A DNA stretch of 5,639 nucleotides, from IMG/VR virus record IMGVR_UViG_2563366968_000011; one strand, given 5' to 3'. This document shows positions 984 to 1,705 of the stretch, piece by piece. The translations under genes and the position numbers were made by a program. Each line of letters opens with the position of its first letter. Positions within the stretch are counted from its first letter, which is position 1. The DNA is from a virus (lineage: Duplodnaviria > Heunggongvirae > Uroviricota > Caudoviricetes). Below the pieces are notes generated by a model that was not told the DNA's origin, did not search any database, and saw only the letters and a program-made list of their open reading frames with translations.

Positions 984-1705
984 GCAAGATTGATTATCAA
1001 AAGCTTCGTGAAATCGCTGAAAAAACAAAAATTGCTGGTGAAGCACCTGTAATGCCTTTCGATCAGCGAATTAATGCGCTTAACGATTTTATGAAGCACT
1101 TTTCGCCAGATATCGCGCTGGTATTGTTGGATGAACGGGAAAGAAACCAGCAATACATCAAACGCCGTGACCAGGAGAACGAGGATATTGCGCTTACGGT
1201 TGGGAGGCTGCGCGTTGAGCTGGAAGGCAAAGACAGCAAAATAGCCAATCTTACCGCCGAACGCGATGCTCTTCGTGAAGGTGAGATGGGCGACGCTAGG
1301 CATAGCAACACACGGGCCGCAGCTGATATCTACTTCCAACTGGTCGAGGAATGCGAAATTCCTGCTGGCGGATCTCTGGTCGAGTACGTTGACGATATGC
1401 GCGAGAAGCTGGAAGCCGCAGAGAAGCGCATTGCAGAACTGGAAGCACGGGAAATAAAACCAGCCAAAGGCGAAGTTCTTGTCGTTGTTTCTGGTTTTAC
1501 TGGTTGCGGAAAAAGCGCCATCGCCGGGGAAATAGAAATCGCGATGAAGGCTATTGGTGTACCGGTTCAGTGGACTAATGGCGATGTGGAAAAGCGCATG
1601 ACAGGAGCTGACTGGCTGACAGCGATTGAGATGTACAAACCAACAGTGCGCATCGTGGAAGTTAATGTGCCACGCGCCCCTGGCATTCGCATCAAAGGAG
1701 AGTGA
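980..1705 (+). CDS. Ead/Ea22-like prophage protein with central coiled coil
   Basis: GTG at 980 is preceded by AAGGAGG at 967..973 and overlaps the upstream stop as GTGA, so I prefer it to the in-frame ATG at 947 given in the ORF track. The central region (…LTVGRLRVELEGKDSKIANLTAERDALREGE… and …MREKLEAAEKRIAELEARE…) has the charged, heptad-like composition of a coiled coil. The C-terminal ~75 aa contain a Walker-A-like string GFTGCGKS. The Ea22-like assignment is from overall architecture and genomic position, not a search. Confidence 0.6.
   Translation: MSKIDYQKLREIAEKTKIAGEAPVMPFDQRINALNDFMKHFSPDIALVLLDERERNQQYIKRRDQENEDIALTVGRLRVELEGKDSKIANLTAERDALREGEMGDARHSNTRAAADIYFQLVEECEIPAGGSLVEYVDDMREKLEAAEKRIAELEAREIKPAKGEVLVVVSGFTGCGKSAIAGEIEIAMKAIGVPVQWTNGDVEKRMTGADWLTAIEMYKPTVRIVEVNVPRAPGIRIKGE
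1680..1705. repeat. 26-bp gene-junction repeat, copy 1 (CTGGCATTCGCATCAAAGGAGAGTGA)
   Basis: Identical to 2174..2199. It encodes the last residues (GIRIKGE) and stop of the Ea22-like ORF and supplies the SD for the next gene. Confidence 0.9.

What the first reader, a model, noticed from the sequence alone, without database searches (positions are those of the whole stretch)
1493..1516. Walker-A-like motif (GFTGCGKS) in the short C-terminal domain of the Ea22-like protein
The C-terminal ~75 residues contain …EVLVVVSGFTGCGKSAIAGEIEIA…, a hydrophobic strand followed by GxxxxGKS and a helix, which is the local pattern of a P-loop. The remaining domain is too short for a complete P-loop NTPase and I see no Walker B, so this may be a nucleotide- or phosphate-binding minimal fold, or coincidence.
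Basis: seen in the sequence. Interest (0 to 1): 0.35.

Follow-up and report, generated by a model that had tools for sequence, protein, structure and literature searches.

The report
Conserved 70-residue mini P-loop phage domain
The Walker-A motif is real and strictly conserved: it marks a roughly 70-residue swappable domain, fused here to a lambda Ea22-type prophage protein and found elsewhere as a free-standing mini-protein, that is less than half the size of any ordinary P-loop enzyme; its function is unknown.

Summary
GFTGCGKS is at nt 1493-1516, aa 172-179 of a 241-aa ORF (GTG 980 to stop 1705). Its N-terminal 155 aa are Ead/Ea22 (Pfam 1e-17; 58% identical to lambda Ea22 over aa 1-88).

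It is not chance. The strict motif G..G.GK[ST] arises in 0.04% of shuffles and is kept in 379 of 387 relatives. G175, G177 and K178 are invariant down to about 35% identity.

The motif belongs to an autonomous domain of about 70 aa (aa 164-235) with no Pfam or NCBIfam model and no PHROG function. The domain is:
- a cassette joined to at least 33 different Ea22 N-termini;
- an N-terminal or internal module in Burkholderia and Ralstonia phage proteins;
- a free-standing 68-85-aa protein in prophages of alpha-, beta- and gamma-proteobacteria.

It is under purifying selection (pN/pS 0.09). The domain is unrelated to lambda's CTD.

Two confident AlphaFold2 models put the glycine loop before a helix that starts at K178, as in P-loops. 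DSSP calls no strand and Foldseek finds no match, so the global fold is unconfirmed.

Best reading: an oligomer-dependent binder of a phosphate-bearing ligand (nucleotide). Binding is untested.

The parts
980..1705 (+). Ea22-like gene, 241 aa (GTG start, TGA stop at 1703-1705)
   Evidence: ORF list and sequence. Pfam Ead_Ea22 PF13935 on aa 2-155, E 1e-17, 65.5 bits against a cut-off of 27. 58% identity to lambda Ea22 over query aa 1-88 (lambda aa 1-79), E 6e-25.
983..1444 (+). Ead/Ea22 N-terminal and coiled-coil scaffold (aa 2-155), ending in the recombination joint KRIAELE (nt 1424-1444)
   Evidence: Pfam match. In 80 IMG/VR prophage loci the same C-terminal domain is attached to at least 33 different N-terminal architectures, nearly all ending in ...KRIAELE.
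1469..1684 (+). Autonomous mini-domain of about 70 residues (aa 164-235) carrying the P-loop motif
   Evidence: The matched stretch in 445 representative clusters is query residues about 7-78, placed at the N-terminus, the C-terminus or inside proteins of 117-623 aa. Free-standing proteins of 68-85 aa exist. No Pfam domain on any of them. pN/pS is 0.088.
1493..1516 (+). Walker-A motif G172-F-T-G-C-G-K-S179
   Evidence: Sequence. G175, G177 and K178 are 100% conserved, S179 and A180 99%, G172 98% in 127 aligned homologues. No amino-acid variant in these codons among 54 nucleotide alleles. AlphaFold2 pLDDT is 92-96 here, with neither helix nor strand called.
1511..1552 (+). Predicted helix alpha-1 (K178-A191), starting at the Walker-A lysine; includes near-invariant E184 and I185
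   Evidence: DSSP on two independent AlphaFold2 models gives H23-36 of the 86-aa model and H16-29 of the 75-aa model. Conservation is 98%.
1589..1612 (+). Conserved acidic residues E204 (94%) and D211 (92%) in the two short helices between the second and third hydrophobic segments
   Evidence: Alignments A2 and A4. Helices 201-208 and 212-219 appear in both models.
1646..1660 (+). Candidate Walker-B-like element V223-R-I-V-E227 (hydrophobic run ending in Glu)
   Evidence: E227 is 99% conserved and V223 94%. The Glu is kept in the most divergent relatives: BcepC6B ITE, RSF1 VCE, SURPRISE13 VVE, KpHz_2 LSE and Methylorubrum VSE. Its role is inferred, not shown.
1677..1705 (+). 29-nt module-boundary repeat encoding the C-terminal GIRIKGE, plus the stop; contains the Shine-Dalgarno AAAGGAG for the next gene (ATG 1708)
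   Evidence: Direct repeat with 2171-2199 (97%) and 2622-2650 (66%). The pattern AARGGAGRNTGA occurs 3 times against 0.01 expected.

Best explanation
Residues about 164-235 of this Ea22-like protein form an autonomous, exchangeable mini-domain of about 70 residues. Its core is a genuine, selectively maintained Walker-A (P-loop) element: a hydrophobic segment, then G-x-x-G-x-G-K-S-A, then a helix starting at the lysine. Forty-nine residues later comes a conserved hydrophobic run ending in Glu (E227), at the place where a Walker B would sit. The domain is too small to be a complete P-loop NTPase. I infer that it works as an oligomer. Here it is held in two to four copies at the end of the Ea22 coiled coil; elsewhere it would self-associate. 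In that state K178, S179 and the conserved acidic residues E204, D211 and E227 would bind a Mg2+-phosphate-bearing ligand, most likely a nucleotide. Slow turnover of the ligand is possible but not required. The gene sits in the early accessory exo-xis-type region. The domain would therefore be the effector 'head' through which this Ea22 variant acts on the host. Shown: the motif, its conservation, domain autonomy, mosaic distribution, purifying selection and the local loop-helix geometry. Inferred: oligomerisation, ligand binding, the Walker-B role of E227 and any link to lysogeny.
For: Motif position and flanks. Chance probability is 0.036% for the strict form and 1.3% for the loose form. 379 of 387 relatives keep G..G.GK[ST]. 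G175, G177 and K178 are 100% conserved; S179, A180 and E227 99%; E184 98% in 127 sequences that are as little as about 32-40% identical to the window domain. The motif is kept in distant phage homologues: BcepC6B gp37, RSF1 ORF139, SURPRISE13_138 and KpHz_2. There are 445 representative clusters at E<=1e-3, with the 70-aa stretch at N-terminal, C-terminal or internal positions. Free-standing proteins of 68-85 aa occur in Klebsiella, Achromobacter, Burkholderia, Pandoraea and other prophages. pN/pS is 0.088 over 54 alleles, with synonymous but no amino-acid changes in the P-loop codons. Two AlphaFold2 runs (pLDDT 86.4 and 88.7, pTM 0.72 and 0.75) place G172-G177 outside helix and strand, with the helix starting at K178. 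From general knowledge, this is the arrangement in Ras, whose helix starts at K16. A family profile searched against PDB sequences returns only Walker-A stretches of P-loop proteins. Among the best hits are designed minimal 'phosphate-loop proteins' 6c2u/6c2v (E 0.006) and a de novo designed ATPase (E 0.012). Designed beta-(P-loop)-alpha polypeptides of 40-110 residues bind ATP, GTP, ADP and polyphosphate only as oligomers (PMC10119929). Other Ea22 proteins are tetramers with dimeric C-terminal domains (PMC10834534).
Against: DSSP calls no beta-strand in either AlphaFold2 model. Foldseek finds nothing better than E about 4 and TM below 0.3 in the PDB or BFVD, and no P-loop NTPase. The canonical alpha/beta arrangement is therefore not confirmed. 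No Pfam, NCBIfam or PADLOC family reaches threshold. The APS-kinase, UreG and ABC hits (E 0.005-0.1) cover only the Walker-A stretch. The domain lacks the fourth and fifth core strands, any base-recognition element, a lid and an arginine finger. No conserved gene neighbour or informative fusion partner points to a ligand. No experiment exists for this domain. The authors of the lambda Ea22 structure warn that AlphaFold gave context-dependent, partly wrong models for Ea22 C-terminal domains (PMC10834534).
Confidence: 0.5

Rival explanations
1. Protein-interaction or decoy module. The domain copies the N-terminal third of a P-loop kinase or ATPase. It acts by docking onto a host or defence protein, for example by completing or poisoning the beta-sheet of an oligomeric NTPase. 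The glycine-rich loop and lysine would be conserved for that contact rather than for binding a free nucleotide.
For: [quoted passage not shown] All are acidic (PMC10834534), and this domain is too: mean net charge is -3. The extended hydrophobic segments are left unpaired in both AlphaFold2 models, as expected if they pair with a partner. The gene always sits in early accessory regions of prophages, where host-takeover and anti-defence genes cluster. Two fusion partners are Lar-type restriction-alleviation domains.
Against: Complete invariance of G-x-G-K with 99% S and A, together with a 99% conserved Glu, is the signature of a phosphate/Mg2+ site rather than a typical interface. The domain spans hosts from Methylorubrum to E. 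coli at 35-98% identity, which argues against co-evolution with one host protein. Yeast two-hybrid surveys found no partner for lambda Ea22, though that is a different C-terminal domain (PMC10834534).
Confidence: 0.25
2. Split or half enzyme. Two copies of the 3-segment unit dimerise into a six-stranded P-loop-like sheet and form a true ATPase or small-molecule/nucleotide kinase. E227 would act as Walker B and E204 or D211 as catalytic residues.
For: Walker A plus a Walker-B-like Glu plus two further near-invariant acidic residues. From general knowledge, the order of elements (hydrophobic segment, P-loop, helix, hydrophobic segment, two short helices, hydrophobic segment ending in Glu) mirrors the first 85 or so residues of nucleotide kinases. 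The best sub-threshold family hits are kinases (APS kinase, uridine kinase, dNK) and G3E-type GTPases such as UreG, which use Glu in Walker B. Designed P-loop peptides of about 50 residues catalyse weak phosphoryl transfer (PMC10119929).
Against: No substrate-binding or lid element is present. No conserved Arg or Lys is seen apart from K178 and K205. No metabolic gene partner is conserved. The structural models show no sheet. All family hits are statistically insignificant.
Confidence: 0.15
3. Coincidental or decaying motif. Either the Walker-A-like string is a chance match, or the domain is a dead fragment of a larger NTPase gene carried along by recombination.
For: A loose Walker-A match occurs by chance in 1.3% of shuffles. 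Ea22 genes are highly mosaic (PMC10834534). A few singleton relatives carry a substituted motif.
Against: The strict motif has a chance probability of 0.036%. It is invariant across 445 representative clusters. pN/pS is 0.088. Complete free-standing ORFs of 68-85 aa recur in many genomes; the Klebsiella protein alone was read on 23 contigs and is indexed in 98 blocks. The domain is flanked by low-complexity linkers in multidomain proteins.
Confidence: 0.03

Closest known systems
P-loop NTPase superfamily (Walker A/B); nearest sub-threshold hits are adenylyl-sulfate kinase CysC/PF01583, UreG (G3E GTPases) and ABC-transporter nucleotide-binding domains
   Same: G-x-x-G-x-G-K-S after a hydrophobic segment and before a helix that starts at the Lys. 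A conserved hydrophobic run ending in an acidic residue follows downstream. The E. coli variant even resembles CysC through the following 'xDGD' position (as I recall the CysC sequence; the NF003013 alignment reaches aa 202).
   Different: About 70 residues, compared with the roughly 150 or more I recall for the smallest natural P-loop NTPases. It lacks core strands 4-5, a lid and base-binding elements. No family model reaches its cut-off (APS_kinase scores 14.6 bits against 21.1). Foldseek finds no P-loop structure.
Designed 'P-loop prototypes' / phosphate-loop proteins (Tawfik laboratory; PDB 6c2u, 6c2v; PMC10119929) and de novo ATPase PL2x4_2 (PDB 9jix)
   Same: Size class of 40-158 residues. 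A beta-(P-loop)-alpha element sits on a minimal scaffold. They are among the best PDB sequence hits of the family profile (E 0.006 and 0.012). They function only as oligomers, which fits display on the Ea22 coiled coil.
   Different: Those proteins are synthetic or ancestrally inferred and are basic nucleic-acid binders. This is a natural family under purifying selection, acidic (net charge about -3), with extra conserved acidic residues. Similarity is confined to the Walker-A stretch.
Lambda Ea22 (NP_040612) and its C-terminal domain (NMR structure, PMC10834534)
   Same: The same gene family and genomic slot upstream of xis-int. The N-terminus is 58% identical over aa 1-88. Both have the coiled-coil-to-CTD joint KRIA(E/K)LE and the terminal GIRIKGE.
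   Different: The C-terminal domains are unrelated: BLASTP finds nothing and hhalign gives probability 0.3%. Lambda's is a beta-beta-alpha-beta-beta-alpha dimer without a Walker A.
Ea22 variants V1, V2 (DUF551) and V3 of Stx phages (PMC10834534)
   Same: The same mosaic principle: a common N-terminus and coiled coil with an exchangeable, acidic C-terminal head. A DUF551-type protein is encoded 950 nt downstream in this window (2652-3599).
   Different: None of the 28 phage records that carry this domain is in that paper's Table 1. The paper mentions no P-loop. This is a further, undescribed head type, and it also exists outside Ea22 proteins.
PHROG 11761, 250 and 31825
   Same: These are the phage orthologous groups that contain this domain (E 8e-44, 7e-65 and 1e-7).
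   Different: All three are annotated 'unknown function', and no motif is noted.

Membership tests
P-loop NTPase superfamily | Walker A motif GxxxxGK[ST] | tested here: met
   GFTGCGKS at aa 172-179. Strictly conserved in 379 of 387 relatives. G175, G177 and K178 are 100% conserved.
P-loop NTPase superfamily | Motif lies in a loop between a beta-strand and the N-terminus of an alpha-helix | tested here: inconclusive
   Both AlphaFold2 models show a loop followed by a helix starting at K178, with pLDDT above 90. The preceding VLVVVS is not called as a strand by DSSP.
P-loop NTPase superfamily | Walker B: hydrophobic strand ending in Asp or Glu that coordinates Mg2+ | tested here: inconclusive
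   V223-R-I-V-E227 is present, with E227 99% conserved and retained in the most divergent members.
P-loop NTPase superfamily | Three-layer alpha/beta core with a parallel sheet of at least five strands | tested here: not met
   The domain is about 70 aa with at most three strand-like segments. Free-standing members are 68-85 aa. DSSP finds no sheet, and Foldseek gives no P-loop hit: best E is about 4 and TM is below 0.3.
P-loop NTPase superfamily | Significant sequence match to a curated P-loop family | tested here: not met
   Pfam, NCBIfam and PADLOC hits are all below their cut-offs and limited to the Walker-A stretch. The best PDB profile hit has E 0.004.
P-loop NTPase superfamily | Binds and/or hydrolyses NTP | not testable with these tools
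   Needs a purified protein.
Ead/Ea22-like family (PF13935) | Match to the Ead_Ea22 model above the gathering score | tested here: met
   65.5 bits against a cut-off of 27, E 1e-17, aa 2-155.
Ead/Ea22-like family (PF13935) | Homology to lambda Ea22 and a location in the early-left accessory region upstream of xis and int | tested here: met
   58% identity over query aa 1-88, E 6e-25. The excisionase (4065-4319, DUF1233 E 9e-29) and the integrase ORF (4353-5639) lie downstream on the same strand.
Lambda-type Ea22 C-terminal domain | Sequence or profile similarity to lambda Ea22 aa 102-182 | tested here: not met
   There is no BLASTP alignment beyond the joint and the terminal GIRIKGE. hhalign probability is 0.3%.
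Adenylyl-sulfate kinase (PF01583 / TIGR00455) | Full-length match above cut-off, including the C-terminal substrate and lid regions | tested here: not met
   14.6 bits against 21.1 (Pfam) and 12.5 against 138.7 (TIGR00455). Only profile positions 3-40 of 152 align. APS kinase is not among the top 60 PDB hits of the family profile.

The most novel reading that the evidence does not exclude
This is a natural, free-living minimal P-loop protein family of about 70 residues. It would be a present-day counterpart of the 40-110-residue beta-(P-loop)-alpha 'prototypes' built in the laboratory to model the origin of NTPases. It would adopt a fold, or an obligate oligomer, not represented in the PDB. 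Phages would use it either as a stand-alone protein or as a plug-in head on Ea22 scaffolds, to bind or sequester a host or immune-signalling nucleotide and so bias the lysis-lysogeny or defence outcome.
Probability: 0.15. Interest if true: 0.8.

Novelty: new variant of a known kind. Interest (0 to 1): 0.5.

Why it matters
From general knowledge, the smallest natural P-loop NTPases have about 150 residues. Whether a single beta-(P-loop)-alpha unit on a minimal scaffold can work in biology has so far been addressed only with designed peptides. A natural domain of about 70 residues is a ready-made test case. It is strongly conserved, exists on its own in many prophages, and is carried by about 7% of complete E. 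coli genomes.

For phage biology, it defines a further, undescribed 'head' for the mosaic Ea22 pro-lysogenic proteins. Unlike the lambda, V1, V2 and V3 heads, it carries an obvious, mutable candidate active site (K178, S179, E227). That makes the long-open question of what Ea22 proteins do directly testable by point mutation.

Tried and rejected
1. Sequence search of the full protein against the PDB gave nothing relevant.
2. Pfam, NCBIfam, PADLOC and PHROG searches for a named family covering the C-terminal domain gave only sub-threshold Walker-A hits or PHROGs of unknown function.
3. [quoted passage not shown]
4. Three Foldseek searches, of two AlphaFold2 models against the PDB and one against BFVD, gave no meaningful match. 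DSSP called no strands.
5. A specific APS-kinase origin was considered because of the GLSGSGKS...LDGD resemblance. It was set aside because the family-wide profile does not favour APS kinase and the 'GD' is not conserved outside the enterobacterial branch.
6. A functional link to the downstream DNA-modification gene was considered (Mom-like here, an N6/N4 methyltransferase in Achromobacter prophages). It was rejected because the downstream gene differs in phiV10, D6, Tbat1_6, BcepC6B and the Mu-like prophages.
7. Fusion partners gave no functional clue. Of 110 multidomain members, 24 have Ead_Ea22; the remainder have none or scattered hits (Lar in 2, DUF4406 in 1).
8. Literature searches for Ea22 together with Walker A or P-loop found nothing relevant.
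10. I ran no further search on bridging to full-size NTPases. The top-120 listing would have been filled by family members.

Full report
**1. The observation.**

The window's + strand carries an ORF that the ORF listing reports as 947..1705. The plausible start is GTG 980. It is preceded by AAGGAGG and overlaps the stop of the upstream gene (GTGA). It also matches lambda ea22, which starts with GTG and the same residues, VSEINSQALRE against VSKIDYQKLRE. That gives 241 aa. In 200,000 shuffles of this protein the strict motif G..G.GK[ST] appears in 0.036% and the loose [AG]xxxxGK[ST] in 1.3%. It is the only loose match in the 1,733 residues of the window's nine plausible genes.

**2. What the protein is.**

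Residues 2-155 match Pfam Ead_Ea22 (E 1e-17, above the cut-off). Query aa 1-88 are 58% identical to lambda Ea22 aa 1-79 (E 6e-25). An excisionase (4065-4319, DUF1233) and an integrase ORF (4353-5639) lie downstream on the same strand. The window is therefore the exo-xis-type early accessory region of a lambdoid prophage. The whole window matches Stx-converting phages only in patches, at most 52% coverage.

The C-terminal part (aa about 160-241) has no Pfam, NCBIfam or PADLOC family. It gives only sub-threshold Walker-A hits, for example APS kinase at E 0.02-0.03. Its PHROGs (250, 11761, 31825) have no known function. It is not the lambda C-terminal domain. BLASTP aligns only the coiled-coil joint (KRIAELE against KRIAKLE) and the terminal GIRIKGE, and hhalign gives a probability of 0.3%.

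The published work on Ea22 describes mosaic C-terminal heads (lambda, V1, V2/DUF551, V3) and mentions no P-loop (PMC10834534; PMC8614690 and PMC7093339). None of the 28 phage records that carry this head (phiV10, O157 typing phages 9 and 10, D6, JL22 and others) is in that paper's Table 1.

**3. The motif belongs to an autonomous, widespread mini-domain.**

An exhaustive HMMER scan of 1.84 billion cluster representatives with the last 86 residues found 445 representatives at E<=1e-3, of which 344 were at E<=1e-10. The matched stretch is always query residues about 7-78. In the host protein it lies at the C-terminus, at the N-terminus (residues 22-95) or in the middle, and the hosts are 117-623 aa long. 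In multidomain proteins it is bounded by low-complexity linkers.

tblastn against isolated phages found the following distant homologues:
- the N-terminus of Burkholderia phage BcepC6B gp37 (58% identity);
- an internal position in 346-420-aa proteins of Ralstonia and Burkholderia jumbo phages (35-40% identity);
- a 107-119-aa ORF of jumbo phage KpHz_2.

A profile of those distant members recovered 127 further proteins. Most are free-standing ORFs of 68-133 aa, and many are only 68-85 aa. They come from Pandoraea, Burkholderia, Achromobacter, Klebsiella, Raoultella, Methylorubrum and metagenomes, and none has a precomputed Pfam domain.

Two of these free-standing genes were looked at in context. 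The Klebsiella gene sits in a Mu-like prophage just upstream of gemA and mor. The Achromobacter gene sits between erf/recT and xis-int. These are the same kind of early accessory slot as ea22.

In complete E. coli genomes the domain's DNA is present in 365 of 5,426 genomes. Eighty-one copies are on plasmids; I take these to be phage-plasmids such as D6, which was not checked.

**4. Conservation and selection.**

Of the 387 family proteins collected, 379 keep G..G.GK[ST]. Two have Ala at the first Gly. Five carry a single substitution and one is truncated. Conservation in a 127-sequence alignment, whose members are as little as about 32-40% identical to the window domain, is as follows:

| Residue(s) | Conservation |
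|---|---|
| G175, G177, K178 | 100% |
| S179, A180, E227 | 99% |
| G172, E184, I185 | 98% |
| A191 | 96% |
| G193, P221 | 95% |
| E204, V223 | 94% |
| D211, Y219 | 92% |

E227 ends the hydrophobic run V-R-I-V-E. The Glu persists in the most divergent members: ITE, VCE, VVE, LSE and VSE.

Across 54 distinct nucleotide alleles from 80 IMG/VR prophage loci, pN/pS is 0.088. The P-loop codons show synonymous variation but no amino-acid variation. In those same 80 loci the head is joined to at least 33 different N-terminal architectures, nearly all through the joint ...KRIAELE. It is therefore a recombining cassette. The domain is acidic, with a mean net charge of -3, like the other Ea22 heads (PMC10834534). 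This argues against simple binding to a nucleic-acid backbone.

**5. Structure.**

Two AlphaFold2 runs gave confident models.
- 86 aa with 73 sequences: pLDDT 86.4, pTM 0.72.
- 75 aa with 127 sequences: pLDDT 88.7, pTM 0.75.

Both have the same three helices: K178-A191, 201-208 and 212-219. G172-G177 are neither helix nor strand, with pLDDT of 92-96. The first helix starts at the Walker-A lysine, which (from general knowledge) is the arrangement in Ras, where the helix starts at K16.

However, DSSP calls no beta-strand anywhere, although VLVVVS, VPVQW and VRIVEV look strand-like. Foldseek finds nothing in the PDB or BFVD; the best E is about 4 and TM is below 0.3. I could not inspect the coordinates. 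Three readings are possible: the strands pair between subunits in an obligate oligomer, the fold is new, or the model is unrealistic. The lambda Ea22 authors report that AlphaFold gave context-dependent, partly wrong models for Ea22 heads.

A family profile searched against PDB sequences hits only Walker-A stretches, with a best E of 0.004. Among the top hits are the designed 'phosphate-loop proteins' 6c2u/6c2v and a de novo ATPase.

**6. Mechanism.**

Established here:
- a selectively maintained Walker-A element with P-loop-like local geometry;
- a conserved downstream acidic residue;
- a domain far too small to be a complete NTPase;
- autonomy and mobility of the domain.

Inferred: the domain functions as an oligomer and binds a Mg2+-phosphate ligand, most likely a nucleotide. 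Ea22 proteins are tetramers with dimeric heads (PMC10834534). Designed 40-110-residue P-loop peptides bind nucleotides and polyphosphate only when oligomeric (PMC10119929).

I put about 0.5 on this reading. The rivals are:
- a protein-docking or decoy module, about 0.25;
- a true split enzyme completed by dimerisation, about 0.15;
- chance or a decayed fragment, about 0.03, effectively refuted.

No conserved neighbour or fusion partner narrows the ligand.

**7. Comparison and novelty.**

The domain works like, and shares the defining motif of, P-loop NTPases. It fails the membership tests for a five-stranded core and for a significant family or fold match. The strand and Walker-B tests are inconclusive. 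It is a bona fide member of the Ead/Ea22 family through its N-terminus, but it carries an undescribed head.

I file it as a new variant of a known kind: a natural mini P-loop domain family without a curated model. I score interest at 0.5. The function is unproven, and the structural prediction does not yet confirm the fold.

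Noticed in passing
window 1677-1705, 2171-2199, 2622-2650: A 29-nt junction repeat, CC(C/A)CTGGCATTCGCATCAAAGGAGAGTGA, forms the last eight codons (GIRIKGE plus stop) of two consecutive, otherwise unrelated genes. A weaker third copy also exists. AAAGGAG is the Shine-Dalgarno for the next gene (ATG 1708, ATG 2201, start near 2652). This probably explains the 'K/RGE C-terminal motif of unknown significance' reported for all Ea22 proteins (PMC7093339). It looks like a nucleotide-level module boundary and translational-coupling signal rather than a protein motif. The pattern occurs 3 times against 0.01 expected.
   Followed up: partly
window 1708-2199: The gene immediately downstream, translationally coupled to the Ea22-like gene, matches PHROG 1384 'Mom-like DNA modification protein' (E 1.5e-42). 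It matches Pfam Mom below threshold (23 bits against 27.1). It ends in the same GIRIKGE.
   Followed up: no
window 172-642: An HD-domain deoxyribonucleoside 5'-monophosphate phosphatase (PHROG 318, E 6e-96; Pfam YfbR-like just below cut-off). Only profile positions 120-274 of 296 are covered, so this is a short form or an N-terminally truncated gene.
   Followed up: no
window 633-983 and 980: A 116-aa ORF matches the C-terminal parts of the Ea22-related PHROGs 614, 14548 and 368. Its stop overlaps the GTG start of the Ea22-like gene (GTGA), with AAGGAGG just upstream. This suggests a split or recombined Ea22-type module and translational coupling.
   Followed up: no
window 2201-2650 and 2652-3599 (repeat 2324-2353 / 2757-2786): Two adjacent genes share a duplicated N-terminal segment (SLEAEP(I/V)AW, 87% at the nucleotide level over 30 nt; shared PHROGs 660, 5117 and 3323). 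The second ends in DUF551, the head of the published Ea22_V2 variant. The window therefore holds several Ea22-type mosaic pieces side by side.
   Followed up: no
L015-L094 (IMG/VR prophage loci), joint corresponding to window 1424-1444: The same C-terminal head (93-100% identical) is attached to at least 33 different N-terminal architectures in 80 loci. Nearly all are joined at ...KRIAELE, a very sharp recombination joint inside a coding sequence.
   Followed up: partly
AlphaFold2 models of window 1445-1702 and 1466-1690: Both models are confident (pLDDT 86-89, pTM 0.72-0.75), yet DSSP reports no beta-strand and Foldseek finds no similar structure in the PDB or BFVD. This is unexplained. Possible reasons are an obligate oligomer, a new fold or an artefact.
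   Followed up: partly
L001 1417-2016 (BcepC6B gp37); L002 1012-2052; L003 1012-2274: In Burkholderia and Ralstonia phages the mini-domain is fused to other uncharacterised regions. In BcepC6B gp37 the C-terminal partner contains EGFTPEHDDQYGDG. In the jumbo phages an N-terminal domain of about 160 aa and long C-terminal tails flank it. None of these regions has a Pfam family.
   Followed up: no
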